The notes under the pieces: model-generated | What the model saw: only the letters and a program-made list of their open reading frames with translations | Databases searched by the model: none | What the model was told of the DNA's origin: nothing | Program-made: the position numbers and the translations under genes | Shown here: in pieces, positions 6,409 through 38,828 of the stretch | Layout: every line of letters begins with the position of its first letter | Position numbering within the stretch: position 1 is the stretch's first letter | Source: a virus | Lineage: Duplodnaviria > Heunggongvirae > Uroviricota > Caudoviricetes | Virus record (IMG/VR): IMGVR_UViG_2537561603_000004 | Span: 1 to 53,635 of that record | Length of the DNA: 53,635 nt | Strand: one strand, 5' to 3'

Positions 6409-7101
6409 TTATCCGTGTTTCCTATACGTCTGCGGCATACTGCCAATAACCTTCCCGAAAATGAACACCCGGTTCATCTCGTCTTTCTCGATCGGGTCCC
6501 ACGGTGAGTAGCTCTTGTTATCAGAGATAACCAGTAGCTTATCTTTCATCATTTGCAGGCGCTTTACATGGGCTGTGTCGTCGTATAGAAACGCATAGAT
6601 ACCATCACCGTCGAAAGATTTAACCGTGATATCAACGAACAGCAGATCACCTGGTTCGATCGTTCCTGACATGCTGTCACCGCGTACGTTAATGATGCGG
6701 ATATTTTCTGCCTTCCTGCCATCGAACATGTGACGAGCATCGTCAAACGAGTACTCAACCGAGCGTAGGACTTCTACAAACTCACGGTTGATGACGCCCG
6801 GCCCAGCACTGACTTCTATATCAAGAACGTCAATCTTGAAGTATTTGGAATGGTTGACAGCAGGCTTTCCTGATTGTTGACCGTCATTTCTCATCGGGCC
6901 TATGCCTGATGAGAGCCACTCTGTTCGAACACCCAATGCATTAGCTATTTCAACAATTTTTGTTGAGCCGCGCGCGTTGCCGCTTGTCAGTCTCCAGATT
7001 GTGGGTTGAGCTACGCCAGACGCCTTTGCAAGAGCGCCTTGAGACATTCCAGATTGTTCCATCGCTAGGTTTAAGCGATCAGCAAGAGTTTCTTTTTTCA
7101 T
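6409..7101 (-). CDS. CI-like prophage repressor (HTH_XRE + S24 LexA-like peptidase)
   Basis: N-terminal HTH (MSQGALAKASGVAQPTIWRL), C-terminal S24 motifs (VRGDSMSGTIEPGDLLFVD serine region; HVKRL lysine), possible Ala-Gly cleavage site (VSAGPG). ATG at 7099-7101 preferred over the TTG at 7137 used by the ORF track. Confidence 0.85.
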   Translation of the reverse strand: MKKETLADRLNLAMEQSGMSQGALAKASGVAQPTIWRLTSGNARGSTKIVEIANALGVRTEWLSSGIGPMRNDGQQSGKPAVNHSKYFKIDVLDIEVSAGPGVINREFVEVLRSVEYSFDDARHMFDGRKAENIRIINVRGDSMSGTIEPGDLLFVDITVKSFDGDGIYAFLYDDTAHVKRLQMMKDKLLVISDNKSYSPWDPIEKDEMNRVFIFGKVIGSMPQTYRKHG

Positions 7102-7211
7102 AAGTTTTAATTTATACGCTTGCGTATTGATGGTCAAAACACGTTTTGCTATTGAATGGGTTGATACGCATTGCTATTATCTGTTCATTGCAATACCAAT
7201 AGGAATTGATA
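7102..7211. promoter_or_regulatory. Divergent PRM/PR-like promoter-operator region
   Basis: Intergenic region between divergent repressor and cro-like genes with repeated TTGCTATT motifs and an inverted copy (cattgcaata at 7186-7195). Confidence 0.5.
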
Positions 7212-27040: not shown

Positions 27041-27062
27041 GGCCGCCTGTGCGGCTTTTTTT
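27041..27062 (+). terminator. Hairpin plus T-run between D and E (possible attenuator)
   Basis: ggccgc-ctgt-gcggc followed by ttttttt. Confidence 0.35.
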
Positions 27063-27075
27063 ACGGGATTTTTTT

Positions 27076-27351
27076 ATGTCGATGTACACAACCGCCCAGC
27101 TGCTGGCGGCAAATGAGCAGAAATTTAAGTTTGATCCGCTGTTTCTGCGTCTCTTTTTCCGTGAGAGCTATCCCTTCACCACGGAGAAAGTCTATCTCTC
27201 ACAAATTCCGGGACTGGTAAACATGGCGCTGTACGTTTCGCCGATTGTTTCCGGTGAGGTTATCCGTTCCCGTGGCGGCTCCACCTCTGAATTTACGCCG
27301 GGATATGTCAAGCCGAAGCACTTAGCATGGCTTTCTGAGGCTTTCGTGTAG
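27076..27351 (+). pseudogene. E: Major capsid protein E, 5' portion (codons 1-81), interrupted by insertion at 27320/27321
   Basis: Translation MSMYTTAQLLAANEQKFKFDPLFL...TPGYVKPKH matches the lambda gpE N-terminus, then reads into unrelated sequence (LAWLSEAFV) and stops; the remainder of E resumes at 38043. Confidence 0.9.
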
Positions 27352-27448
27352 TTGCTGGTTTTTACACTTAATCTTTTGATAATAAAGAATAAGTCTATCT
27401 GGCGCTTTCACTGGATTTTCCTCGTTATCTGTGTGTTGCAATCATCTC

Positions 27449-27469
27449 TGTATTGCAGCTTGTATTGCT
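27449..27469 (+). repeat. Arm-type repeat, left copy (TGTATTGCAGCTTGTATTGCT)
   Basis: 21-bp sequence repeated in the same orientation at 37942-37962 (one mismatch), just inside each element end. Confidence 0.6.
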
Positions 27470-27483
27470 TTTTGGGGCTTAAA

Positions 27484-28719
27484 ATGGCTGGCGAGAACAA
27501 ACTGAGCGACAAAGCACTTAAAGGATATCTGGGGAAACCCAGAGAAAAGCAGATCACCATTGCTGATGGAAAGGGGCTTTCTATTCGTGTGAGTACCAAG
27601 GGGGCTGTGAGCTTTGTTTTCTTCTACAGGTTAGCAGGTGGCCGGGCTGCTCCGGTCTGGCTAACGTTGGGTAAATATCCTGATATGTCACTCAAACAGG
27701 CAAGGGAAAAGCGCGACGAGTGCCGTGGTTGGTTGGCTGACAAACGTGATCCGCGTATCCAGATTAAGATTCAGGCTGAAGAACGCTTAAAGCCGGTCAC
27801 AGTGGAGGATGCACTAAATTACTGGTATGAAAATTACTGTAAGGTGCGTCGTAAAACTCATGCTGTAACGCTTGGCAGATTTCGAAAGCATATTTTTCCC
27901 TATATCGGTCATTTGCCTGTAAATGACACTCACCTATATGAATGGCTGGACTGTTTTGACCGAATTAAACGTAATGCACCAGTTATGGCGGCGTATGTTT
28001 TTTCTGACACTAAATTAGCTCTTCGTTTTTGTCGGGTACGCCAGTACGCGACGTGTGATGCTTTAAAGGATTTGCGCATGAGTGATGTGGGGCAGATTGC
28101 AGGTAAGCGGGATCGGGTTCTGGATGAAGCCGAGCTGGGCCAGCTCTGGAAAGCAATTTTTGTCGAGCCTGATTTAAAACTAATGTCTGAATACACGCGA
28201 AAAATGTTTGTACTTTGTACAGTATTTGGATGTCGAATGAGTGAAGCCCGATTATCAGAATGGAGCGAATGGGATCTCGAAAGTTGGGTTTGGACTGTAC
28301 CAAAAGATCACTCAAAAACTGGTGTTGAAATCGTCAGACCAGTACCTGAAATTCTACGACAGTGGGTAACGGATGTTCACGAAGAGACAAAACATACTGG
28401 TTATGTGCTGGGAAGTCTGCGAATTAGAGAAAGCGTAAGCAAGATTGGGGGGAAAATCGGTAAACGTTTGGGCCATGAAAAACAATGGTCACTACACGAC
28501 CTTAGAAGAACGCTATCTACTCATCTAAGTGATCTCGGTGTTGAATTTTATGTAGTAGAACAACTGTTAGGCCATGCGCTACCTGGCGTGGCAGGTGTTT
28601 ACAACCGGAGTAAGTTTATGGCTAAAAAACTGGATGCTCTGGAACTCTGGACTACATATCTCAATAGCATCGCAGGTGCTGATTCAAAAGTGATAATCCT
28701 CAAACAAAAGGCTGGTTAA
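27484..28719 (+). CDS. Tyrosine integrase (P4-type, satellite-associated)
   Basis: 411-aa protein from the ATG at 27484; catalytic motifs HDLRRT and LLGHA...GVYNR; the N-terminal extension in the ORF track is unlikely to be coding. Confidence 0.85.
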   Translation: MAGENKLSDKALKGYLGKPREKQITIADGKGLSIRVSTKGAVSFVFFYRLAGGRAAPVWLTLGKYPDMSLKQAREKRDECRGWLADKRDPRIQIKIQAEERLKPVTVEDALNYWYENYCKVRRKTHAVTLGRFRKHIFPYIGHLPVNDTHLYEWLDCFDRIKRNAPVMAAYVFSDTKLALRFCRVRQYATCDALKDLRMSDVGQIAGKRDRVLDEAELGQLWKAIFVEPDLKLMSEYTRKMFVLCTVFGCRMSEARLSEWSEWDLESWVWTVPKDHSKTGVEIVRPVPEILRQWVTDVHEETKHTGYVLGSLRIRESVSKIGGKIGKRLGHEKQWSLHDLRRTLSTHLSDLGVEFYVVEQLLGHALPGVAGVYNRSKFMAKKLDALELWTTYLNSIAGADSKVIILKQKAG

Positions 28720-28720
28720 C

Positions 28721-28948
28721 ATGAAAAAAATGGCGATTGTTGATAAAAAGGGTCTGGAGTACATTCCTAACATCGATCGTATGATCCGTGAGAAAGAATG
28801 TCGGGAGCTAACCACTCTTGCGAACAGCACACGCTGGAAGCTGGAGAAGGAAGGGAAATTTCCTAAGCGGATCAAGATTGGCTCCACTGCTGTTGCATAT
28901 CGTCTTTCAGAAGTGCAGGCATGGATTCGAGGTGAGTGGGTAGTTTAA
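28721..28948 (+). CDS. AlpA-family transcriptional regulator/excisionase
   Basis: 75-aa protein with AlpA-like HTH (LANSTRWKLEKEGKFPKRIKIGSTAVAYRLSEVQAWI) directly after the integrase. Confidence 0.7.
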   Translation: MKKMAIVDKKGLEYIPNIDRMIREKECRELTTLANSTRWKLEKEGKFPKRIKIGSTAVAYRLSEVQAWIRGEWVV

Positions 28949-29017
28949 ATTATCTCAGAATAAAATATTATGAATTACTGATTTGAGAATTTGCACTCAA
29001 ATCAGTAATAACATTCT

Positions 29018-29554
29018 TTATAAGAGATTAAATCCAAATAAAGAGTAATCATATGCCGGGGTGCATTGCATCCCACTGAATATGCTGATATTTTTTTCTG
29101 TTTCTATCCTTTTTTCAATAAGTTGTTGTATATTTTTACAGTACAATTTGTGTGTGATGTTATTATCGTAAGCCTGATATAACAACGTCAATGTTGACGC
29201 TATGAAACATGCAGAAAGAAAATGAACTAGTACATGTGAACGTTTTTTGGTTGTCCATGATGCATTCGCTTGTGAAATATAAATCATTCTGAGAAGGATA
29301 ATGATGATAGACAGTAACAGACCACTCAATAAAATAAGCATTGGGTTTGCGTATTTTATTAATGGTTGAGAGCAAAAAACCATTATGGCTCCTGTGACTG
29401 CGTATGAGAAAAAGGAGTAATTAAACTTTTTACTTCTTCTCTCAAGTATTTTAATTTCATCTTGTGTGGGGGTTTTAGATGCCTCTAATATAAGTTTATT
29501 GAATGTTTCTATTATCTTGTTTTTTATGTTTGTGGCTATTTTTTTTAGATTCAT
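29018..29554 (-). CDS. Multi-pass membrane protein of unknown function (accessory cargo)
   Basis: 178-aa ORF with ~4 hydrophobic helices in a strongly AT-rich segment (about 28950-29870); own RBS (gggag). Confidence 0.5.
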   Translation of the reverse strand: MNLKKIATNIKNKIIETFNKLILEASKTPTQDEIKILERRSKKFNYSFFSYAVTGAIMVFCSQPLIKYANPMLILLSGLLLSIIIILLRMIYISQANASWTTKKRSHVLVHFLSACFIASTLTLLYQAYDNNITHKLYCKNIQQLIEKRIETEKNISIFSGMQCTPAYDYSLFGFNLL

Positions 29555-29904
29555 AGTATTCTAACTCCCTTAACTTATTTATTACTTTCTCTTTATGATA
29601 AGAGAGGGGAATGACTTGGTAAAGTGATTTGTAATTAATAATGATAATCCTTGCGATAAATATTTCTGCAAGTTATTTATCTGTTTGTTGCTATCTTGTT
29701 AAGCGTTGGGTGTGGTTTATGTTTGGAGCGACTTTATTTAATCGTGATTTTATGGATCTATATTTATATCCTGTAAGATAAGCGCATGTTAGTTCAGGAG
29801 TAGTGTCAGATAAAATTATTCGGAGTAGAACTACCTTTTCTGTTTATTGCCAGTATTTACATAGCAATGCGCCGTAGTTACTCACATCACGGCGCTGATA
29901 GTAA

Positions 29905-30207
29905 TTATTCAGATTCTTTGGCTTTACGCCGCTGGAGTTCTTCACGAGCGACGGCTACGAGTTGCCCGATTTCCTCCGCTGCCTTGATGCCGATTTGTTC
30001 GACCTTAGCTAAGGCATCCAGTGAAGACACGAGGGGATTTTCTCCGCTTCCTTCTGCCTGGCGGCGGGCGATCTCACCGCGCATGGCGGTTACTATGAAT
30101 CCGGCGTTGCTTTCGCCGTCCAGTTTTACGGATTCCATGCCCTCCATAACATCGTGGGGAACCCTGATCGTTGTCATTTGCGATTTTGCATTTTTGTATA
30201 CAGACAT
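29905..30207 (-). CDS. Ribbon-helix-helix (CopG/Arc-like) DNA-binding protein, putative repressor
   Basis: 100-aa ORF; N-terminal TTIRVPHDVMEGMESV pattern resembles an RHH beta-strand/helix; divergent from the rightward replication operon with operator-like repeats between. Confidence 0.45.
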   Translation of the reverse strand: MSVYKNAKSQMTTIRVPHDVMEGMESVKLDGESNAGFIVTAMRGEIARRQAEGSGENPLVSSLDALAKVEQIGIKAAEEIGQLVAVAREELQRRKAKESE

Positions 30208-30226
30208 AGTTAATCACCAATTTGTT

Positions 30227-30329
30227 ATGTGTATATCACTATACACAAAAGTGAGATATAAAAACACTTGCAATGTATATCACCACAATATAATGTATAT
30301 CTCACATCATGGTCGCTATGTATCTCACA
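30227..30329. promoter_or_regulatory. Divergent promoter region with repeated TGTAT(A)TC(A/T)CA operator-like motifs
   Basis: Direct repeats at 30227-30240, 30273-30284, 30293-30306 and 30318-30329, plus an inverted element (atatcac ... gtgagatat). Confidence 0.5.
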
Positions 30330-30415
30330 ATGATCGATTCATAAAAACGACGAAACCCGGCAGTGCGCGAACACTAACCGGGCTTCTAACCAAACCGTTA
30401 AACGAGGTAACGATT

Positions 30416-30781
30416 ATGGCTGGAACACAGCATACCCAAACTCACCCTAAATTTATATACACCTTTCTGGCACTACACCACGACCGCATGGCAGATGGAG
30501 CAACTACGGTACATGTTGCCGCTGACACGCTGGTTGATGCCCGCAAGATGGTTAAGGAGATGGGCTATACTGCGGCTTTCTGGAAAGGGCGTGAAGAAAA
30601 CACGCTGTTTATTCAGAAATGCGAAAACAATTTCATCTGGCGTTTTATCGCCCTGAGCACCGCACAACCACGCGTAATACACATCGAGGCCGCCAGCGAA
30701 CAGGAAGCCCGCCAGCAATTCCCAACTGGCTACGTGATGATATTCGCCGCCCGTATTCGTCAGGAGGTGTGCCATGAATGA
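30416..30781 (+). CDS. Hypothetical protein (first gene of rightward operon)
   Basis: 121-aa ORF from the ATG at 30416; the upstream part of the 304-aa track ORF spans the promoter and is rejected. Confidence 0.4.
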   Translation: MAGTQHTQTHPKFIYTFLALHHDRMADGATTVHVAADTLVDARKMVKEMGYTAAFWKGREENTLFIQKCENNFIWRFIALSTAQPRVIHIEAASEQEARQQFPTGYVMIFAARIRQEVCHE

Positions 30782-30998
30782 TCTTTATTTTAAAGTGCTG
30801 ACACATGCTGAAAACGCGCTCGTTTGTGGCAAAAATATGCGAGAAATCTTATCAACCTGGCTTGATGGGACAACAAATGCGGAACACGATGAACGGGATG
30901 CTAATTTAGCTGGAGCGTTAATTACGTTACTTGATCCTGTCATCAAAGAGCTGGATGAAGCTATAAAAATACACGACCAGAGCTATACCGGAGAATAA
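30774..30998 (+). CDS. Hypothetical protein
   Basis: 74-aa ORF with strong RBS (aggaggtg), overlapping the upstream gene stop. Confidence 0.4.
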   Translation: MNDLYFKVLTHAENALVCGKNMREILSTWLDGTTNAEHDERDANLAGALITLLDPVIKELDEAIKIHDQSYTGE

Positions 30999-31001
30999 AA
31001 A

Positions 31002-31289
31002 ATGAAAAATAAATTTTCTGGCTTTATTGCCAGCGGTCAAACTCATTCAAAAATCAGCCTTGGGGATATTTTCAAAGACAGCTATGGCTATCGGGTAAAG
31101 ATTATTTCGGTTGATGATCGTCGTGTCTCTTATTTGCGTGATGGTTATGATTTTGAATGTGTTATGCCGCGTCAGCAGTTCGAAAGAGATTTCATTCTGG
31201 TAAAAAATTGCAAGACAGATAATCAGAGGCGTGCCGCAGGCTATATCCGTAAAATTCGGGCAATGTTAGTTGCCGGAGGTAACAAATGA
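31002..31289 (+). CDS. Hypothetical protein
   Basis: 95-aa ORF overlapping the primase start. Confidence 0.4.
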   Translation: MKNKFSGFIASGQTHSKISLGDIFKDSYGYRVKIISVDDRRVSYLRDGYDFECVMPRQQFERDFILVKNCKTDNQRRAAGYIRKIRAMLVAGGNK

Positions 31290-33106
31290 AACGTGCTCCG
31301 AACTTAAAATACCAACCGCGCGACAAAATGACGGAAGTCATCATTTTTGCTGGCAGTGATGCCTGGAGCCATGCAAAAGAATGGAATGAATGGGCAGGTA
31401 AGCATATTGCAGCAGATGATACACCACCAGTCATTCTGGGTACGGAACAACTGGAAAACCTGGATGATATGCAAATTATCGATGAAGGCCGTCATTATGT
31501 GCGTGTTTATCGTGCCGGAAAGATTGCAGAGAAAAGTCTGACGAAGGTTGCGACATTACTTGCTATTGCAGGCGTAAAGGAAGCACGTTGTTACCGTAGC
31601 TTTGTTGATCGAGAGCCTGAAGACTGGACTCCGCGCCTTGTCGGCCTAAAAGCTGAAGCGGAGCATGGGGAAAGTCTGGTGATTGAACTGCCAGTTAAGA
31701 AGGCTGAGCGCAAAAATGACGAGCGTGCTTCATCTTTGGCGTTGAATCAGATGGGGGCCAGCCAGCGCGGTGAAGTTCTCCTTGCACATTACGGCGGCGA
31801 ACTGGCAATCAATGCCGACTCTGACACCGTTCATCATTACAACGGCGTTGTATGGGAGCCGGTTCAGGATAAAGAGTTACAGCGTGCTATGGCGCAGATT
31901 TTCATTGATGCGGAGATCAGCTATTCGCAGAACGCTATTAAATCGGCGGTAGATACCATGAAGTTAAGTTTGCCTGTAATGGGGAATACAGCCCGTAACC
32001 TGATTGGATTCAGTAACGGGGTATTTGATACCAGAACTGGTAACTTTCGGGAGCATAACAAAAACGACTGGTTGTTAATTGCCAGTGAATTACCTTTCAG
32101 CCCACCAGCAGAGGGGGAAACGCTGGCAACACATGCGCCGAATTTCTGGAAGTGGTTGCGCCGTTCGGTGGCTGAGAATGACCGCAAGGCAGATCGCGTA
32201 CTGGCGGCATTATTCATGGTGCTGGCGAACCGGTACGACTGGCAGTTATTCATTGAGGTAACAGGGCCGGGGGGAAGTGGTAAAAGTGTGATGGCGGAGA
32301 TTTGCACCATGCTGGCGGGTAAGGCTAATACAGTATCAGCAAGCATGAAGGCGCTGGAAGATGCAAGGGAACGTGCGTTAGTGGTTGGCTTTTCGCTGAT
32401 TATCATGCCGGATATGACCCGCTACGCTGGTGATGGGGCAGGGATTAAGGCCATTACAGGCGGTGACAAGGTGGCAATTGACCCGAAACACAAAGCCCCC
32501 TATTCAACGCGTATTCCGGCAGTAGTGCTGGCGGTTAACAATAACGCCATGTCATTCAGTGACCGCAGCGGGGGGATCTCACGTCGTCGGGTGATATTCA
32601 ATTTTTCGGAAGTTGTACCGGAGAACGAACGCGATTCGATGCTGGCGGAAAAAATAGAAGGTGAGCTGGCGGTAGTGATTCGCCATCTGCTTACACGGTT
32701 TGCTGATCAGGACGAAGCCAGACGCCTGTTATATGAGCAGCAGAAATCTGAAGAAGCACTGGCGATAAAGCGAGAGGGGGATTCGCTGGTGGACTTCTGC
32801 GGCTATCTCATGGCATCGGTAATGTGTGATGGCCTGTTAGTGGGTAATGCTGAAATTGTGCCATTCAGCCCACGCAGGTATCTCTATCATGCCTATCTGG
32901 CTTATATGAGGGCACATGGGTTTGGTAAACCTGTAACACTGACGCGCTTCGGTAAAGATATGCCGGGGGCAATGGCGGAATATGGCAGGGAGTATATGAA
33001 ACGGAAAACGAAGCACGGTTTGCGTTCAAACGTGACACTGACGGAGGAATCAGAAGACTGGATGCCATCATGTGTATCGGTCACTAATGACGATAGCAAA
33101 AATTAA
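31286..33106 (+). CDS. Primase-helicase (P4/PICI-type Pri-Rep, SF3 helicase C-terminal domain)
   Basis: 606-aa protein with Walker A (GPGGSGKS) and following Walker B-like region; RBS ggaggt; followed immediately by iterons. Confidence 0.75.
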   Translation: MKRAPNLKYQPRDKMTEVIIFAGSDAWSHAKEWNEWAGKHIAADDTPPVILGTEQLENLDDMQIIDEGRHYVRVYRAGKIAEKSLTKVATLLAIAGVKEARCYRSFVDREPEDWTPRLVGLKAEAEHGESLVIELPVKKAERKNDERASSLALNQMGASQRGEVLLAHYGGELAINADSDTVHHYNGVVWEPVQDKELQRAMAQIFIDAEISYSQNAIKSAVDTMKLSLPVMGNTARNLIGFSNGVFDTRTGNFREHNKNDWLLIASELPFSPPAEGETLATHAPNFWKWLRRSVAENDRKADRVLAALFMVLANRYDWQLFIEVTGPGGSGKSVMAEICTMLAGKANTVSASMKALEDARERALVVGFSLIIMPDMTRYAGDGAGIKAITGGDKVAIDPKHKAPYSTRIPAVVLAVNNNAMSFSDRSGGISRRRVIFNFSEVVPENERDSMLAEKIEGELAVVIRHLLTRFADQDEARRLLYEQQKSEEALAIKREGDSLVDFCGYLMASVMCDGLLVGNAEIVPFSPRRYLYHAYLAYMRAHGFGKPVTLTRFGKDMPGAMAEYGREYMKRKTKHGLRSNVTLTEESEDWMPSCVSVTNDDSKN

Positions 33107-33116
33107 ACTTATGGAA

Positions 33117-33345
33117 TAACTGTTCACCACTGTTCACCCTGTCATAAATATCTTTTATATCAGTATATTATAGGGTGAACAGTTATTTATGAACTGTTCA
33201 CCAAACTATTCACTGTTCACCTTTTTGATTGTTTATTGAGCTTCAAGGGTGAACAGTGGTGAACAGTTGGTGAATAGTTTTTGTGAAACTGTTCACCAAT
33301 TAACATTATGAATTAAAAGAGAAAATATCAAAAGGTGAACAGGTG
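33117..33345. repeat. Replication origin iterons (CTGTTCACC / GGTGAACAG, about 10 copies in both orientations)
   Basis: Dense array of 9-bp repeats immediately downstream of the primase-helicase gene. Confidence 0.8.
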
Positions 33346-33393
33346 AAGGGTTAAAACGCAAAAATTTTAATTTACTGCTGTGAGATAAAGCCT

Positions 33394-33639
33394 ATGACAG
33401 CGAAGCACACAAAAAAATCACAATCGCACGCCCTTGATTTGACGGAACACTGGTTAAGGGTGTCGATAAAAATCATCGACCGCAACGCCGGGGAAGGATA
33501 CGCGAAAGCACATCCCGAACTGATTAGCGCATTCATGACAACGGCGGCTGCAAACTTTGCCACTCTGACCGAACGGGAGATTGCTGAAGCGGAGGAAGTG
33601 ACAACAATCAATATTAAGTCCGGAGAGCAGGCAGCATGA
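33394..33639 (+). CDS. Hypothetical protein
   Basis: 81-aa ORF between ori and ssb. Confidence 0.35.
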   Translation: MTAKHTKKSQSHALDLTEHWLRVSIKIIDRNAGEGYAKAHPELISAFMTTAAANFATLTEREIAEAEEVTTINIKSGEQAA

Positions 33640-34085
33640 CGGCGCAAATATCAGTTTACGGGCGGTTGGTGGACGACCCGCAGACAAAACAGACCAGCAA
33701 GGGCACCCCCATGACGCTGGCGCGTATGGCGGTATCACTGCCCTGCAGTCAGTCGGATGACGGTCAGGCGACGATGTGGTTATCTGTCCTGGCGTTTGGC
33801 AGACAAGCCGACGCGCTGGCAAAGCATCACAAAGGCGAACTCCTGAGCGTGGCGGGTAACATGCAGATGAGCCAGTGGACTGGACAGAACGGCGAAACGC
33901 GGCAGGGCTGGCAGGTTATCGCAGACAGCGTAATCAGTGCGCGATCGGTGCGACCGGGCGGCAATAAAGGCCAACAGGGGCAGGCTACTGACGCACTGAA
34001 CAGAGCAAAACAACAGGCAGATCAGCAAGGAAGCCAGCCACCAGTGGGAGATAATGAGCAATGGGGAGATGATATCCCGTTTTAA
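33636..34085 (+). CDS. ssb: Single-stranded DNA-binding protein (SSB)
   Basis: 149-aa protein with OB-fold-like N-terminus (ISVYGRLVDDPQ...), Gly/Gln-rich linker and the SSB-signature acidic tail DDIPF. Confidence 0.7.
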   Translation: MTAQISVYGRLVDDPQTKQTSKGTPMTLARMAVSLPCSQSDDGQATMWLSVLAFGRQADALAKHHKGELLSVAGNMQMSQWTGQNGETRQGWQVIADSVISARSVRPGGNKGQQGQATDALNRAKQQADQQGSQPPVGDNEQWGDDIPF

Positions 34086-34302
34086 ATATTGCCAATAAAA
34101 AAAGGCCGGAAAAAATAAATTTTCCGGCATGCTACATAAATCCCGACCAAAGGGAGTGAAGATATTAACACTAATTTTCCGCACTGAAGTTGTCACCCCA
34201 AAACTTTATACAACATTGCACTCGGTTGCATGTATTCGCATGACAAATATCGGTGATAGCATATATCCACAATTATTTTTAATGAATGCAAAGAGGATGC
34301 GT

Positions 34303-35343
34303 ATGGTTGATTTATATTCGCCTACTCAGCTTGTACAGGTGGTTAATGCTGTAGATGTACAAAAACAACTAAATGCGTTGTTTACCAGTTTGTTTTTTAC
34401 TCGCTCGGTAATGTTTGAATCGCGCGATATTATTCTTGATACAATCGACGATCCAAATATCCCAATTGCAGCGTTTTGTTCTCCTATGGTGGGTAGTAAA
34501 GTTTCACGTGACGAAGGGTACGAATCAAAAACAATTCGTCCAGGCTATATGAAGCCGAAAAGCAGCATTGATCCAAATAAGTTAGCTGTGCGCCCTGCTG
34601 GTGTATCACCTGAGCAATACAATGCTTTTGGGGCGCGTAATATTAAAGTTAAACAGGCGATTGTAAATCAAGCTAAAGCTATTCGTGCACGTATTGAATG
34701 GCTTGCTGTTCAGGCAATCACAACGGGGAAAAATATCATTGAGGGCGATGGTATTGAACGTTATGAGCTGGACTGGAATATTAAACCACAAAATATCATC
34801 ACTCAGTCTGGCGGTGCTGAGTGGTCAGGTAAGGATAAAGAAACTTTTGATCCAAATGATGATATTGAGAGCTACGCAGAATTTAGTGAGGGCGTCACTA
34901 ATATTATCATTATGGGCGGTAATGTATGGAAGAAATACCGTTCATTCAGAGCGATAAAAGAGGCTCTGGATACCCGTCGTGGTTCTAATTCCGAACTGGA
35001 AACGGCCCTTAAAGACCTTGGTGATTCGGTGAGTTTTAAAGGGTATATGGGCGATGTTGCGATTGTTGTTTACAGCGGGCGTTATACCGACGAGGACGGA
35101 ACAGAAAAACATTTCCTTGATCCTGATTTGATGGTGCTTGGCAATACGGCTCTTCAGGGGATTGTCGCCTATGGCGGTATTCAGGATCCGGAGCTAATCC
35201 GAATGGGGCTGACTAAAGCCGAACTTGCACCGAAAAACTATATTGTGCCTGGTGATCCGGCTATTGAATATGTGCAGACACATTCAGCACCACAGCCAAT
35301 ACCGGCCCGCATCAATCGTTTTGTTACCGTTCGCATTGGCTAA
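34303..35343 (+). CDS. Element-encoded major capsid protein, divergent homologue of lambda gpE
   Basis: ~346-aa protein with clear but partial similarity to lambda gpE along its length (e.g. TRRGSNSELETA.KDLG...GDVAIVVYSG); ATG at 34303 with RBS aagagga. Confidence 0.8.
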   Translation: MVDLYSPTQLVQVVNAVDVQKQLNALFTSLFFTRSVMFESRDIILDTIDDPNIPIAAFCSPMVGSKVSRDEGYESKTIRPGYMKPKSSIDPNKLAVRPAGVSPEQYNAFGARNIKVKQAIVNQAKAIRARIEWLAVQAITTGKNIIEGDGIERYELDWNIKPQNIITQSGGAEWSGKDKETFDPNDDIESYAEFSEGVTNIIIMGGNVWKKYRSFRAIKEALDTRRGSNSELETALKDLGDSVSFKGYMGDVAIVVYSGRYTDEDGTEKHFLDPDLMVLGNTALQGIVAYGGIQDPELIRMGLTKAELAPKNYIVPGDPAIEYVQTHSAPQPIPARINRFVTVRIG

Positions 35344-35352
35344 GGGGGAGCA

Positions 35353-35694
35353 ATGGCTACTCATTACACTGAACTCATGGCTGGCACTGAAGCACTGGTG
35401 ACTACGCTGGGGATATTTTCAGCTAATAAAGGGGTAATTCCTGCATTTACGCCACTGATGCAGGAAGATGCAACAGGTGCACTGGTGGTATGGGATGGTT
35501 CGAGCGTAGGTAAAGCGGTTTATGTTTCCGCTGTACAAATCGACACCGCGAAAAAAACACAGGCTCAGGTCTATAAGACAGGTGTCTTAAATGTTGATGC
35601 TCTGAACTGGCCTGAGTCTGTTAAAGAACTGTCAGTAAAGGTTGCAGCGTTTGTTGGCTCAGGTATTTCTGTTCAGCCGCTGGCTCGTGTGTAA
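35353..35694 (+). CDS. Element-encoded decoration protein, divergent homologue of lambda gpD
   Basis: 113-aa protein alignable to lambda gpD (PAFTPLMQEDATGALVVWDGSSVGKAV... versus [27 protein letters not shown]...). Confidence 0.7.
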   Translation: MATHYTELMAGTEALVTTLGIFSANKGVIPAFTPLMQEDATGALVVWDGSSVGKAVYVSAVQIDTAKKTQAQVYKTGVLNVDALNWPESVKELSVKVAAFVGSGISVQPLARV

Positions 35695-35705
35695 AGGGGG
35701 ATACA

Positions 35706-36089
35706 ATGCAGAATGATTACAATGACCTTAAGCCAATTGCCGAAATGATGTACCCGAATCAAGCTGTAGAGGAATTAAAAGCTATCGCTGACAAAATGTG
35801 TTTAAGCGAGCGCCTTGTTGATATGAATCAGGTGATGGAAATTACAACCCTGAGTCGTCGTACACTGCTAAACCTTGAGGCTAGTGGAGAGTTCCCGGAG
35901 CGTGTGCAGGTTACGGAAGGGCGTAAGGCCTGGTATTTAAGTGAAGTGATCGACTGGATAAATAATATTCCTCGCGCTTCTGAATATTGCCGCGTACCTG
36001 TCCCAAAAAAGCCAGATGCGGCGCTATGCCTCAAGATTGAGCGTGTACGCCGCAATGCACGGGATGGTCGCTATAAGCTGATTGGTTGA
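35706..36089 (+). CDS. AlpA/MerR-like winged-HTH protein upstream of the element cos site
   Basis: 127-aa protein; segment MEITTLSRRTLLNLEASGEFPERVQVTEGRKAWYLSEVIDWI is AlpA-like. Confidence 0.5.
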   Translation: MQNDYNDLKPIAEMMYPNQAVEELKAIADKMCLSERLVDMNQVMEITTLSRRTLLNLEASGEFPERVQVTEGRKAWYLSEVIDWINNIPRASEYCRVPVPKKPDAALCLKIERVRRNARDGRYKLIG

Positions 36090-36109
36090 TGAAATTAGGG
36101 CCCGCTCTG

Positions 36110-36320
36110 GCTGGCGGGTCCTTTCCGGCGATCCAGAACGTTACGGGGCGTCAGGCGCGCAGTTTTTTGCTATTTGTGAAAATTTTCCTGTTTAAGGCGT
36201 TTCCGTTCTTCTTCGCCGTAACTTAATGTTTTTATTAAAAACACCCCCTAAAAAGAAAGGAAACGACAGGTGCTAAAAACAGGCTTTTTGGCCTCTGTCG
36301 TTTCCTTTCTCTGGTTTTGT
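36110..36320 (+). other. Second cos-like site (cosQ/cosB conserved, cosN region divergent)
   Basis: ~210 bp alignable to the prophage cos at 20912-21125; the cosN-equivalent reads gggcgtcaggcg instead of gggcggcgacct. Confidence 0.8.
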
Positions 36321-36687
36321 TGCCATCCGTCGCGGTCTATCACCAGAAAAAATCTTATCCCTGAGTTGAATCAGGCACTATTCAGAAGCGGCCAATAACG
36401 CGCCGCTAGCTTCACTTCATAGTTATGGCCTACTTCTGCGCCATTGCAATTGCTTTATGCGCCTTGATGGTGGAATATAGAGCAAGCAGTTTGCGAATAA
36501 CAAAGTTTCATATGTTTTTTGCTGTGTGGCTAGACAACTTTACAGCAGAGTTTTGTGTCAGTTCTTTATGTGTGCAAGCAAGCTTGAGGGGGAATTACTT
36601 CTGGCTGCATCTTTGCTTAAGAACAGCAATAATTTAATCATAAGGAAATGTATATAAGCCTGATTAAATTTCAGGCTTATTGAAATG

Positions 36688-37830
36688 TTAACTCCTTATT
36701 AGAGAGTAAATTCCATCCTCTTTAAGGAAGTCTATTACTTCAAAGAATGAGATAAAGAATTCCCAAGAACCAAAAGCATATGCATGAATTTCGTAAGGTG
36801 CAAAATGGAATCTAAATCCATCACTATTTATTGTGAACGAGTCTAAGTTACTATCCATGATACCCGTTGCAAACGTACTAATGTCGTCCTCACTTGGTTT
36901 TTCACCAGTTTTCTCCCAAAATTCACGAGCTGATTCAGAGATTATTTTTTGTTTTATCTTATTAATCGCTTCTTGCTCTTTCCCTTCGGTAAATACATCC
37001 CATAAACTAAATTTGTATGCGTAGTCATCCTTGGTTATTACGAAATTACTAGTTTCAAAATGACTGTTAGGGTGTGCTGCTCCCGCACCATACCAATGTA
37101 CGGAATGAAGGATGCTCATGACATTTTCGTTACAGTATGAGATGTTATAACTTTCATTATAGGAACTAGTGTAAGTGTGTTTATATTCTTCATCCCAATA
37201 TGGTGTTCCTGGCCATAGTGATGTGCGTTCAGAAAAAATATGTAAAGCCGCTTTTCCTGAAAAGTAATCACTAATGAGTTTTGCTGATTTCGGTAATGTA
37301 TGGCTTTCAATTCTTGGATATGCTATTTCAATTTCATGCCCTGGGATCTTGTTATATTCTTCCTTGAAAACCTCGCTGCTAAAGTTAAATGGCCCATAAG
37401 TGATACCTTGAGATATTTCAAGTTTTTGTTGCGATGCTGCTAATCTTAAAGATCTAGATAAAATGTCCCAACCATCATTTCTCTTAAAATCAATGAATTG
37501 GAGCTTGCTTGATATGTAGGCGGGTACTTCGCAATCATCAATAAGTAATGGTATCACGAACACATCATCTGGTTTGTAATACTTTAGTTTATCAATGGCG
37601 TCATTTATTTCGCGGCGAATATAACCATTTTTCTGAGTGCTCACTTTGCTAAGGATAAGGATTATCAAGTTTGAATTAGCGAAGTTTTTTTGGATTTCAT
37701 AATCCCAGTTTACGCCAGCGGGTATATCTTTTACATCCATCCAAGGGGAATATCCTCCACTTTTTAGCCTTTCATAGATTTCTTCAGTTATCGTTTCATC
37801 TTCTTTTGCATGAGCAAGAAAAATTTTCAT
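36688..37830 (-). CDS. TIR-domain protein with uncharacterised C-terminal domain (candidate anti-phage effector)
   Basis: 380-aa ORF; N-terminal ~120 aa fit a bacterial TIR fold (MKIFLAHAKEDE...LKSGGYSPWMDVKDIPAGVNWDYEI...SNLIILILSKVS...REINDAI); AT-rich, own RBS (aagga); between the element cos and its right end. Confidence 0.7.
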   Translation of the reverse strand: MKIFLAHAKEDETITEEIYERLKSGGYSPWMDVKDIPAGVNWDYEIQKNFANSNLIILILSKVSTQKNGYIRREINDAIDKLKYYKPDDVFVIPLLIDDCEVPAYISSKLQFIDFKRNDGWDILSRSLRLAASQQKLEISQGITYGPFNFSSEVFKEEYNKIPGHEIEIAYPRIESHTLPKSAKLISDYFSGKAALHIFSERTSLWPGTPYWDEEYKHTYTSSYNESYNISYCNENVMSILHSVHWYGAGAAHPNSHFETSNFVITKDDYAYKFSLWDVFTEGKEQEAINKIKQKIISESAREFWEKTGEKPSEDDISTFATGIMDSNLDSFTINSDGFRFHFAPYEIHAYAFGSWEFFISFFEVIDFLKEDGIYSLIRS

Positions 37831-37941
37831 TGAATATTCCTTTATAATTTAACTAATTAAGTGAAGGAGGCTTTACTTGGCTGTGTTAGAAAAAATTCGG
37901 TTTGTTTTTTGTACGATGCCAAGAAGGCTTTTCCCTAACCA

Positions 37942-37962
37942 TGTATTGCAGCATGTATTGCT
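37942..37962 (+). repeat. Arm-type repeat, right copy (TGTATTGCAGCATGTATTGCT)
   Basis: Same-orientation copy of the 27449-27469 repeat. Confidence 0.6.
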
Positions 37963-38042
37963 ACGTAATTCTGCACCCTCTCATTTATAAAATAAATCTC
38001 TGTTAAATCAAGTATCTTTTTTCTATTTGACTCATGTAACCC

Positions 38043-38828
38043 AAGCATGAAGTGAATCCGCAGATGACCCTGCGTCGCCTGCCGGATGAAGATCCGCAGA
38101 ATCTGGTGGACCCGGCTTACCGCCGCCGTCGCATCATCATGCAGAACATGCGTGACGAAGAGCTGGCCATTGCTCAGGTCGAAGAGATGCAGGCAGTTTC
38201 TGCCGTGCTTAAGGGCAAATACACCATGACCGGTGAAGCCTTCGATCCGGTTGAGGTGGATATGGGCCGCAGTGAGGAGAATAACATCACGCAGTCCGGC
38301 GGCACGGAGTGGAGCAAGCGTGACAAGTCCACGTATGACCCGACCGACGATATCGAAGCCTACGCGCTGAACGCCAGCGGTGTGGTGAATATCATCGTGT
38401 TCGATCCGAAAGGCTGGGCGCTGTTCCGTTCCTTCAAAGCCGTCAAGGAGAAGCTGGATACCCGTCGTGGCTCTAATTCCGAGCTGGAGACAGCGGTGAA
38501 AGACCTGGGTAAAGCGGTGTCCTATAAGGGGATGTATGGCGATGTGGCCATCGTCGTGTATTCCGGACAGTACGTGGAAAACGGCGTCAAAAAGAACTTC
38601 CTGCCGGACAACACGATGGTGCTGGGGAACACTCAGGCACGCGGTCTGCGCACCTATGGCTGCATTCAGGATGCGGACGCACAGCGCGAAGGCATTAACG
38701 CCTCTGCCCGTTACCCGAAAAACTGGGTGACCACCGGCGATCCGGCGCGTGAGTTCACCATGATTCAGTCAGCACCGCTGATGCTGCTGGCTGACCCTGA
38801 TGAGTTCGTGTCCGTACAACTGGCGTAA
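38043..38828 (+). pseudogene. E: Major capsid protein E, 3' portion (codons ~80-341), separated from 5' portion by the insertion
   Basis: Translation KHEVNPQMTLRRLPDEDPQNL...FVSVQLA matches lambda gpE from residue ~80 to the C-terminus, in frame with the core. Confidence 0.9.

What the first reader, a model, noticed from the sequence alone, without database searches (positions are those of the whole stretch)
28950..29870. AT-rich accessory island downstream of int-alpA encoding a multi-pass membrane protein
The segment is noticeably AT-rich compared with its flanks and carries one reverse-strand ORF (29018-29554) with ~4 predicted transmembrane helices and a good RBS. Its position immediately after the integrase and AlpA genes matches the variable cargo hotspot of P4-like and PICI satellites, where abortive-infection and superinfection-exclusion genes are often found.
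Basis: inference. Interest (0 to 1): 0.55.

Follow-up and report, generated by a model that had tools for sequence, protein, structure and literature searches.

The report
Orphan membrane gene in satellite hotspot
The AT-rich stretch is a swappable cargo cassette in a known type of phage satellite that sits inside its helper prophage's capsid gene, and it carries an uncharacterised three-pass membrane protein that is probably, but not demonstrably, a phage-exclusion factor.

Summary
Window 28950-29870 is the most AT-rich 921-nt stretch of the window (30.8% GC against 49.6% overall). It carries one intact reverse-strand ORF, 29018-29554, 178 aa, with an AAGGGAG ribosome-binding site. The ORF has three hydrophobic helices, not four.

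The surrounding ~10.7-kb element is a helper-embedded PICI (HE-PICI, "capE" type; Tommasini et al. 2023). It is inserted in the lambda-like major capsid gene of a prophage.

The cassette (about 28946-29862) lies where the alpA and ylcI transcription units converge. In 76 related loci this spot holds at least 17 unrelated cargo families. They include PD-T7-1, putAbiC, a CAP12/Pycsar-type TIR protein and an HNH effector-like protein. The 3TM gene occupies 21 of the 76.

The protein is real and under purifying selection (dN/dS 0.07-0.3 outside a mosaic patch). It belongs to a tiny family with no Pfam, PHROG, PADLOC, NCBIfam or PDB match. All 17 members examined keep three TM segments and two C-terminal cysteines. 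Distant members are stand-alone genes in other mobile or defence contexts.

Best reading: a single-gene inner-membrane phage-exclusion factor, function untested. It is a new candidate in a known kind of hotspot.

The parts
27322..38049 (+). Whole helper-embedded PICI satellite (~10.7 kb) inserted in the prophage lambda-E-like major capsid gene. The ends are approximate and lie within the short att identity block.
   Evidence: The capsid gene is split into an N-terminal part (27049-27351 ORF) and a C-terminal part (38052-38828). RefSeq annotates two partial 'major capsid protein' pseudogenes flanking the element. The junction sequences were read. This element type is published (PMC10111431).
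27484..28719 (+). Satellite tyrosine integrase (411 aa as annotated in RefSeq).
   Evidence: Pfam Arm-DNA-bind_3 and Phage_integrase. Annotation.
28721..28948 (+). alpA regulator/excisionase gene. It forms the left flank of the hotspot.
   Evidence: Pfam Phage_AlpA, 2.8e-15. Homology to other elements ends at 28940-28953.
28974..29009 (.). Perfect 14-bp stem with an 8-nt loop, lying between the convergent stops of alpA and the 3TM ORF. It looks like a bidirectional terminator.
   Evidence: I2.
29018..29554 (-). 178-aa three-pass inner-membrane protein (WP_001049526.1). This is the cargo gene of the finding.
29565..29571 (-). Shine-Dalgarno-like AAGGGAG, 10 nt upstream of the ATG.
   Evidence: Read directly from the sequence.
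29595..29623 (-). Sigma-70-like promoter candidate: TTTACC, 17-nt spacer, TATCAT.
   Evidence: Consensus scan, 9 of 12 matches. This is a pattern match only.
29555..29862 (-). AT-rich upstream non-coding part of the cassette. It travels with the ORF in all E. coli copies.
   Evidence: 67 of 68 E. coli hits cover at least 80% of 28950-29870. No credible ORF and no Rfam hit lie in it.
29867..29893 (.). GC-rich 7-bp hairpin (GCGCCGT...ACGGCGC) just 3' of ylcI, at the right edge of the cassette.
   Evidence: Read from the sequence.
29905..30207 (-). ylcI/ynfO-family small gene (100-aa variant). It lies upstream of the 3TM gene on the same strand and forms the right flank of the hotspot.
   Evidence: NCBIfam YlcI_YnfO_N, 8.5e-20. 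PHROG 6522.
30416..30781 (+). Icd-like gene, the start of the rightward replication operon. It was used as the conserved right anchor in the census.
   Evidence: NCBIfam phage_ICD_like, 4.8e-22..
36688..37830 (-). Second, 3'-end cargo site of the satellite, here holding a TIR-DUF3298 protein (380 aa).
   Evidence: Pfam TIR_2, 2.8e-21. PADLOC TIR models. Replaced by an Abi-family or a DUF2971 gene in relatives.

Best explanation
The segment is a self-contained cargo cassette: terminator hairpin, gene, RBS, a likely promoter of its own, and an AT-rich leader. It sits in the 5' accessory hotspot of a helper-embedded PICI satellite, at the point where the int-alpA transcription unit and the oppositely oriented ylcI unit converge.

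Its product is a small inner-membrane protein. The predicted layout is a cytoplasmic amphipathic N-terminus, three TM helices, and a roughly 50-residue C-terminal domain in the periplasm with a conserved cysteine pair.

I propose that it is made in the uninduced lysogen and acts alone as a phage-exclusion factor. It would protect the cell that hosts the satellite-helper composite. The more likely mode is interference with an incoming phage at the periplasmic face of the inner membrane (superinfection-exclusion type). The less likely mode is collapse of the membrane on infection (abortive-infection type).

Shown: the gene is real, conserved and under purifying selection. The site is a hotspot with rapid cargo turnover that often holds known defence genes. 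The family occurs as a stand-alone gene in other mobile or defence contexts.

Inferred: the topology, the expression state, and the anti-phage function and its mode.
For: (1) Hotspot turnover. With flanks 97-99% identical, the site holds a CAP12/Pycsar-type TIR protein (L002), putAbiC (L003) or a 305-aa unknown protein (L004). A census of 76 IMG/VR loci that share this AlpA gives at least 17 unrelated cargo families. They include PD-T7-1 (PADLOC 2.3e-153), an HNH effector-like protein (7e-28), an MBL/LmuA-like protein, DUF3800, DUF2971 and DUF5677. The 3TM gene occupies 21 of the 76.

(2) PICIs are already reported to carry immune systems at their 5' or 3' ends (statement in PMC11364771).

(3) The gene is real. 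It is intact in 14 of 14 related loci. dN/dS is 0.07-0.31 outside residues 81-116. It is present in 68 of 5426 complete E. coli genomes, in the listed records always annotated as a CDS.

(4) It belongs to a family. Exhaustive HMMER finds 11 representatives; about nine are distant relatives (22-36% identical, 113-175 aa). Invariant residues in alignment A1 include F48, P64, P71, C139, Q143, F159 and C164.

(5) The context of relatives is consistent. Copies 32-34% identical sit at the same place in diverged HE-PICIs (L035 and L036). One sits 49 bp downstream of a retron type XI RT-protease, flanked by Fic and DUF4238 genes, in Pseudomonas mandelii. One is a reverse-strand moron inside a prophage head-gene operon. 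One is in a Pantoea island remnant beside an HNH gene, a primase fragment and smpB. No partner gene is conserved among these neighbours.

(6) Topology. Loop 2 is rich in K/R and almost free of acidic residues. The C-terminal domain is charge-neutral in the family and has two cysteines in 16 of the 17 members examined (three in one). The AF2 model has pLDDT 82.

(7) The cassette has foreign composition, 30.8% GC, as does the second, TIR-bearing cargo site.
Against: There is no direct evidence of any anti-phage activity or of expression. There is no significant match to any Abi, Sie, holin or defence model in Pfam, PHROGs, PADLOC or NCBIfam. There is no fold match in the PDB or BFVD and no sequence match in the PDB.

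Not every occupant of the hotspot is a recognisable defence gene. Bro-N-like regulators and several unknowns occur there too, so position alone does not prove defence.

The retron adjacency is a single instance. Type XI retrons are described as single-gene systems.

The topology rests on the positive-inside rule and hydropathy, not on a dedicated predictor or an experiment. The promoter is a 9-of-12 consensus match, in a region where shuffles give 5.9 +/- 3.0 such sites.
Confidence: 0.5

Rival explanations
1. It is a membrane abortive-infection effector. The protein sits inert in the inner membrane. On infection, sensed through its cytoplasmic N-terminal helices or loop 2, it oligomerises and depolarises the membrane, killing the cell before phage release. 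This is the RexB, AbiC or 2TM-effector style. It shares the defence premise of the best explanation and differs only in mode.
For: The same hotspot position holds putAbiC (PF16872) in L003. The one hypervariable, mosaic patch (residues 81-116; dS 0.46, dN 0.41) covers the cytoplasmic loop and the adjoining TM ends, as might be expected for a sensing surface. Single family members gave noise-level hits to SLATT-type models: DUF4231 at E 0.021 and Saf_2TM at E 0.038.
Against: Those Pfam hits are far below threshold and occur in one member each. The best-conserved parts of the family are the predicted periplasmic loop-1 motif QPL.K..NP and the C-terminal Cys-Cys domain, not the cytoplasmic parts. 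The patch has dN/dS of about 0.9 together with a high dS. That fits an imported divergent segment under weak constraint as well as it fits positive selection.
Confidence: 0.2
2. It serves the satellite's own life cycle rather than host defence. One example is a membrane protein that delays helper holin-mediated lysis. That would give the composite time to excise the satellite, restore the capsid gene E and assemble particles. Another example is a protein that otherwise modulates the helper.
For: [quoted passage not shown] The protein is small and multi-pass, like holins and antiholins.
Against: The gene is accessory: 21 of 76 related elements have it and the others carry unrelated genes. It is transcribed against the int-alpA unit and away from the replication and late operon. 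Homologues occur outside any satellite, for example in the Pseudomonas chromosome next to a retron, in the Pantoea island and as a prophage head-region moron. No holin family matched.
Confidence: 0.07
3. It is the toxin of a toxin-antitoxin-like pair with the upstream small YlcI protein. YlcI has a ribbon-helix-helix-like N-terminus, judged from its sequence pattern (not tested). The pair would stabilise the satellite or act as an Abi module.
For: In all 21 census loci that carry it, the 3TM gene lies downstream of a ylcI-family gene on the same strand. The gap is only 50-66 bp in L035 and L036.
Against: ylcI-family genes flank the hotspot whatever the cargo, including PD-T7-1, putAbiC, TIR and DUF2971, so ylcI behaves as a core gene of the element. 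The 100-aa YlcI variant also occurs with Bro-N-like cargo and no 3TM gene (L115, L116). Family members outside PICIs have no such upstream gene and no conserved partner. In the window the two genes are 350 bp apart, with a hairpin and a promoter-like site between them.
Confidence: 0.06
4. It is cargo with a non-phage role or none. Examples are an immunity protein against a membrane-targeting bacteriocin or T6SS effector, or a selfish hitch-hiker with no phenotype.
For: Pore-forming colicin immunity proteins are multi-pass inner-membrane proteins of similar size (own knowledge). One relative lies about 3 kb from a pyocin S gene and another lies next to a T6SS cluster.
Against: No colicin-immunity family matched. 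No toxin gene is adjacent in the HE-PICI copies, and the pyocin has its own 85-aa downstream gene. Purifying selection across members 22-36% identical argues for some function.
Confidence: 0.15

Closest known systems
[quoted passage not shown]
   Same: The int-alpA-...-primase-SSB-capsid order is the same, and the element is about 11 kb. It is inserted in, and co-oriented with, the lambda-E-like capsid gene of a lambdoid prophage. It carries its own Phage_cap_E and decoration genes.
   Different: That paper calls the zone after alpA a 'Bro zone' of DNA-binding proteins and immunity RNAs, and it barely mentions defence. In this window the zone holds a membrane protein, no Bro gene and no C4/isrK RNA. 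The census shows many defence-type genes at the same spot.
PICI 5'- and 3'-end immune-system hotspots (Fillol-Salom et al. 2022, as summarised in PMC11364771) and the P2/P4 defence hotspots (Rousset et al. 2022, PMC9122126)
   Same: This is a fixed site in a satellite, bounded by conserved genes. Unrelated, AT-rich, often single-gene anti-phage systems swap in and out of it.
   Different: Here the hotspot lies between two convergent transcription units, alpA and ylcI, and cargo is appended to either strand. The 3TM protein is not among the systems recognised by PADLOC v2.
Small inner-membrane phage-exclusion proteins: lambda RexB, P22 SieA/SieB, T4 Imm, HK97 gp15 (own knowledge)
   Same: They are small multi-pass or single-pass inner-membrane proteins. 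They are encoded as accessory genes or 'morons' of temperate elements, are expressed in the lysogen, and act alone or nearly alone.
   Different: No sequence or profile similarity to any of them was found. The 3TM plus periplasmic Cys-Cys domain layout is this family's own. Function was not tested.
putAbiC (PF16872), the abortive-infection protein family
   Same: It occupies exactly the same hotspot position and strand, downstream of ylcI, in a sister element (L003).
   Different: There is no Pfam match of the 3TM protein to PF16872. The length differs (227 aa against 178 aa) and the sequences are unrelated.

Membership tests
Gram-negative PICI / helper-embedded PICI (context element) | Co-oriented int and alpA at the 5' end, followed by a primase replication module. 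Size 10-20 kb. | tested here: met
   int, alpA, D5_N/Pox_D5 primase and SSB are all on the + strand. The element is about 10.7 kb.
Gram-negative PICI / helper-embedded PICI (context element) | [quoted passage not shown] | tested here: met
   The capsid gene is split at about 27325 and 38045. Portal, protease and decoration genes lie upstream, and FI and tail genes lie downstream.
Gram-negative PICI / helper-embedded PICI (context element) | Integrase belongs to the HE-PICI integrase clade. Helper-dependent excision and transfer. | not tested
   No phylogeny against the published integrase set was made. Induction is an experiment.
Satellite defence hotspot cargo | Conserved flanks with unrelated genes at the same position in sister elements. 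| tested here: met
   The census of 76 loci found at least 17 cargo families.
Satellite defence hotspot cargo | Known anti-phage systems among the alternative occupants. | tested here: met
   PD-T7-1 at 2.3e-153, putAbiC at 2.8e-16, CAP12/Pycsar TIR at 1.2e-33, and an HNH effector-like protein at 7e-28.
Satellite defence hotspot cargo | The gene itself confers phage resistance. | not testable with these tools
   This needs plating or liquid infection assays.
Known Abi, Sie or holin membrane families (putAbiC, RexB, SieB, Imm, holins) | Significant profile match to the family model. | tested here: not met
   Nothing in Pfam reached threshold; the best hit was DUF443 at 18.7 bits against a 26.2-bit cut-off. 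PHROGs, PADLOC and NCBIfam gave no hit.
SLATT / 2TM defence effectors | Profile match to a SLATT-type model (DUF4231, Saf_2TM), and association with a sensor or nucleotide-signalling gene. | tested here: not met
   Only one family member each matched, at E 0.021 and 0.038, below threshold. No conserved neighbouring gene was found.
Type II toxin-antitoxin pair (YlcI + 3TM) | The two genes co-occur specifically and are conserved together across contexts. | tested here: not met
   ylcI accompanies all cargo types. Relatives outside PICIs lack it.
Retron type XI accessory protein | Recurrent adjacency to an RT-protease gene. | tested here: not met
   One instance only (P. mandelii). The other relatives have no RT nearby. 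Type XI is described as a single-gene system.
   No consistent transporter match. The gene is present in only 68 of 5426 E. coli genomes, always in this cassette.

The most novel reading that the evidence does not exclude
The 178-aa protein founds a previously unrecognised single-gene anti-phage system. It would be an inner-membrane protein whose conserved periplasmic loop (QPL.K..NP) and disulfide-bonded C-terminal domain block genome entry of incoming, probably lambdoid, phages. Helper-embedded satellites, prophage morons and chromosomal defence islands from E. coli to Pseudomonas would then share it.
Probability: 0.3. Interest if true: 0.55.

Novelty: new member of a known kind. Interest (0 to 1): 0.4.

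Why it matters
If the protein is shown to exclude phages, it adds a very small, stand-alone membrane system to the defence catalogue. That class is poorly covered by current detection tools, which found nothing here.

The analysis also shows something about the alpA-proximal zone of helper-embedded PICIs, published as a 'Bro zone'. In many elements it is a two-sided defence hotspot that can be mined systematically: cargo follows alpA on one strand and ylcI on the other.

The immediate finding is modest, because both the satellite type and the hotspot concept are already published.

Tried and rejected
The following led nowhere or were rejected.

(1) Profile searches of the ORF, and of 10 family members, against Pfam, PHROGs, PADLOC and NCBIfam gave only sub-threshold, inconsistent TM-composition hits.

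(2) The structure route gave nothing. The single-sequence AF2 model was poor (pLDDT 55). The alignment-based model was good (pLDDT 82). Foldseek against the PDB and BFVD gave no match below E 0.8, only generic helical hits. The afdb50 library was not available. A profile search of PDB sequences found nothing.

(3) An Rfam scan of the whole satellite for the C4/isrK immunity RNAs reported in some PICI Bro zones found none. There was only a weak symR-like hit at 30349-30421, outside the cassette.

(4) tblastn against 50,697 GenBank phage records found no match, either for the window protein or for the prophage-moron relative P0020.

(5) The retron type XI partner idea was rejected. It rests on a single adjacency, and the literature describes no TM partner.

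(6) The YlcI antitoxin idea was rejected on co-occurrence. YlcI had no PDB relative, so its RHH fold could not be confirmed.

(7) Literature searches for the accession, for 'HE-PICI' and for YlcI/YnfO found no paper on this protein.

(8) A genome-contig scan with the full alignment failed for lack of a conserved stretch. A subfamily alignment found only three loci.

Full report
**1. Observation**

The segment 28950-29870 has 30.8% GC in a window that averages 49.6%. Only 0.03% of all 921-nt windows are as low, and the global minimum (30.5%) starts at 28941. The flanking prophage head genes are 56-58% GC and the satellite as a whole is 43%.

One substantial ORF lies in the segment: 29018-29554 on the minus strand, 178 aa, ATG start. 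It is preceded by AAGGGAG at 29571-29565. A sigma-70-like TTTACC-17-TATCAT lies at 29623-29595. A perfect 14-bp hairpin at 28974-29009 separates its stop codon from the convergent alpA stop.

Hydropathy gives three, not four, hydrophobic segments, at roughly 44-66, 70-93 and 106-128. An AlphaFold model built on a 12-sequence alignment (mean pLDDT 82) shows helices 3-26, 31-66, 71-96, 101-147 and 152-161.

**2. What surrounds it**

The window is a lambdoid prophage. Searches identify these genes:
- integrase, 1-1143
- cI-like repressor, 6409-7137
- Q and the lysis genes
- Bor/Iss
- terminase and portal
- S49 protease
- decoration protein

Its lambda-E-like major capsid gene is split. The N-terminal 91 codons end near 27325 and the rest resumes near 38045.

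Between the two halves lies a ~10.7-kb element. In order it encodes:
- int (27484-28719) and alpA (28721-28948)
- the cassette studied here
- ylcI (29905-30207, minus strand) and an Icd-like gene
- a 74-aa gene and a DUF4222 gene
- a D5-type primase and an SSB
- its own Phage_cap_E capsid gene and lambda-D-like decoration gene
- a second AlpA-like HTH gene
- a TIR-DUF3298 gene (36688-37830, minus strand)

**3. The cassette is swappable**

A megablast of 28300-30800 against 5426 complete E. coli genomes shows many elements that match the int-alpA side and the ylcI/icd side but not the middle. Homology ends at 28940-28953 on the left. On the right it resumes at 29863 or, in other elements, at about 30363.

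Sister elements with flanks 97-99% identical carry other genes in its place:
- a 291-aa CAP12/Pycsar-type TIR protein
- a 227-aa putAbiC protein
- a 305-aa unknown protein

I then collected 80 IMG/VR loci encoding this AlpA and extracted the alpA-to-icd gap in the 76 that had both anchors. The gap holds at least 17 unrelated cargo families in 29 different arrangements. Recognisable families include:
- PD-T7-1 (PADLOC 2.3e-153)
- putAbiC
- a TIR protein
- an HNH effector-like protein (7e-28)
- an MBL/LmuA-like protein
- DUF3800
- DUF2971 with a SWIM protein
- DUF5677

There is a structural regularity. Plus-strand cargo always follows alpA and minus-strand cargo always follows a ylcI-family gene. 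The hotspot is therefore the convergence point of two transcription units. The 3TM gene is the most common single occupant (21 of 76) and is always on the ylcI strand.

PICIs were already reported to carry immune systems at their 5' or 3' ends (PMC11364771). The 3' site of this element (36.4-38 kb) is the only other stretch of the window below 36% GC, and it carries a TIR gene.

**4. The gene is real and belongs to a small family**

The cassette occurs in 68 of 5426 E. coli genomes, and every listed hit is annotated as a CDS. All 14 related loci I translated give an intact 178-aa product.

Between alleles, dN/dS is 0.07-0.31 outside residues 81-116. Those residues form a mosaic patch (dS 0.46, dN 0.41) that covers the end of TM2, the cytoplasmic loop and the start of TM3.

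The word-indexed search found only E. coli proteins at least 85% identical. Exhaustive HMMER over 1.84 billion representatives found 11 hits. About nine of them are distant relatives of 113-175 aa at 25-36% identity.

The alignments show three conserved TM segments. They also show a QPL.K..NP motif between TM1 and TM2, and a C-terminal HD.YC..Q ... EKNS.IF..M.C motif with two invariant cysteines.

In 17 members, loop 2 is positively charged and almost free of acidic residues. The C-terminal domain is charge-neutral overall and holds two cysteines in 16 members and three in one. By the positive-inside rule this indicates an N-in, C-out topology with a periplasmic cysteine pair. That is inference, not measurement.

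**5. Context of relatives**

- Copies 32-34% identical sit at the same place, 50-66 bp downstream of a short ylcI-like gene, in diverged HE-PICIs. Their flanks are 76-83% identical at the nucleotide level, and one is from Kosakonia.
- One member lies 49 bp downstream of a retron type XI RT-protease (PADLOC 1.4e-174) in Pseudomonas mandelii. Fic and DUF4238 genes flank the pair.
- Another is a reverse-strand moron between head genes of a prophage.
- Another lies in a Pantoea island remnant beside an HNH gene, a primase fragment and smpB.
- The neighbouring genes of these relatives are not homologous to one another, so the family works as a stand-alone gene.
- It is absent from 50,697 GenBank phage records.
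- A pattern scan for one subfamily found only three loci among the species-representative genomes.

**6. What it is not**

There is no significant match in Pfam, PHROGs, PADLOC or NCBIfam, for the protein or for its relatives. The sub-threshold hits are scattered TM families. There is no fold match in the PDB or BFVD and no PDB sequence relative. No Rfam family lies in the cassette.

It is not a YlcI-dependent toxin, because ylcI flanks every cargo type and is absent from relatives outside PICIs. It is not a recurrent retron partner.

**7. Mechanism**

I commit to a single-gene inner-membrane phage-exclusion factor made in the lysogen, with probability about 0.5 for defence of either mode under this heading.

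Because the conserved surfaces are predicted to face the periplasm, I favour interference with genome entry over membrane-collapse abortive infection. The mosaic cytoplasmic loop and the putAbiC gene at the same site keep the abortive-infection rival alive.

Three readings are less likely:
- a role in the satellite's own lysis timing
- bacteriocin immunity
- no phenotype at all

All functional steps are inferred. Only the anatomy, conservation, turnover and context are shown.

**8. Novelty and score**

The satellite type and the idea of PICI defence hotspots are both published. What is new is narrow. First, there is an uncharacterised 3TM family that is the commonest cargo of this hotspot in the sample. 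Second, the published 'Bro zone' of capE HE-PICIs is often a two-sided defence hotspot.

I rate it a new member of a known kind, with interest 0.4.

Noticed in passing
window 27049-27351 and 38052-38828 (split gene), element about 27322-38049: The prophage's lambda-E-like major capsid gene is interrupted by the whole satellite, which carries its own Phage_cap_E capsid gene (34129-35343; annotated as 34303-35343) and its own lambda-D-like decoration gene (35353-35694). This is the published helper-embedded PICI configuration (PMC10111431).
   Followed up: yes
window 36688-37830 (-): The satellite's second, 3'-end cargo site holds a 380-aa TIR_2 + DUF3298 protein in AT-rich DNA. The TIR part matches PADLOC TIR models (1.6e-17). 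Sister elements carry an Abi-family or a DUF2971 gene there, sometimes with a small terminase gene.
   Followed up: partly
window 30230-30301: Three direct copies of ATGTATATC(AC), plus small inverted repeats, lie in the divergent ylcI/icd intergenic region. They look like operator sites for a regulator, possibly YlcI or AlpA.
   Followed up: no
window 29018-29554, codons 81-116: Two E. coli alleles of the 3TM gene are about 98% identical in DNA, except for a roughly 108-nt patch with dS 0.46 and dN 0.41. This is a mosaic segment covering TM2, loop 2 and TM3.
   Followed up: partly
window 30349-30421 (-): A weak, sub-threshold Rfam hit to the SymR antitoxin sRNA (35 bits against a gathering score of 61, E 0.0011) lies just upstream of, and slightly overlapping, the start of the Icd-like gene.
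   Followed up: no
window 9973-13881 (+) and 13918-14961 (-): The prophage early region carries a 1302-aa inverse autotransporter (intimin/invasin-like adhesin with an IAT_beta domain and Big_1 repeats) and a convergent 347-aa BD-FAE/alpha-beta hydrolase. These are virulence-type prophage cargo.
   Followed up: partly
L005 6303-8447 (Pseudomonas mandelii AZQQ01000096.1): A distant family member lies 49 bp downstream of, and co-oriented with, a retron type XI RT-protease, a system described as single-gene. The adjacency could be chance within a defence island (Fic and DUF4238 are neighbours) or an unrecognised partner.
   Followed up: partly
L060 5216-6558 and similar loci (census cluster c3+ c4-): A DUF2971 protein (284 aa) recurs with a convergent 118-aa SWIM zinc-finger protein in the same hotspot (9 of 76 loci). 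This may be a two-gene candidate system.
   Followed up: no
L001 14337-16156 (E. coli Rb-23, 100% identical cassette): In the RefSeq genome whose cassette is identical to the window's, the satellite primase is annotated as frameshifted. In the window the primase ORF 31286-33106 is intact.
   Followed up: no
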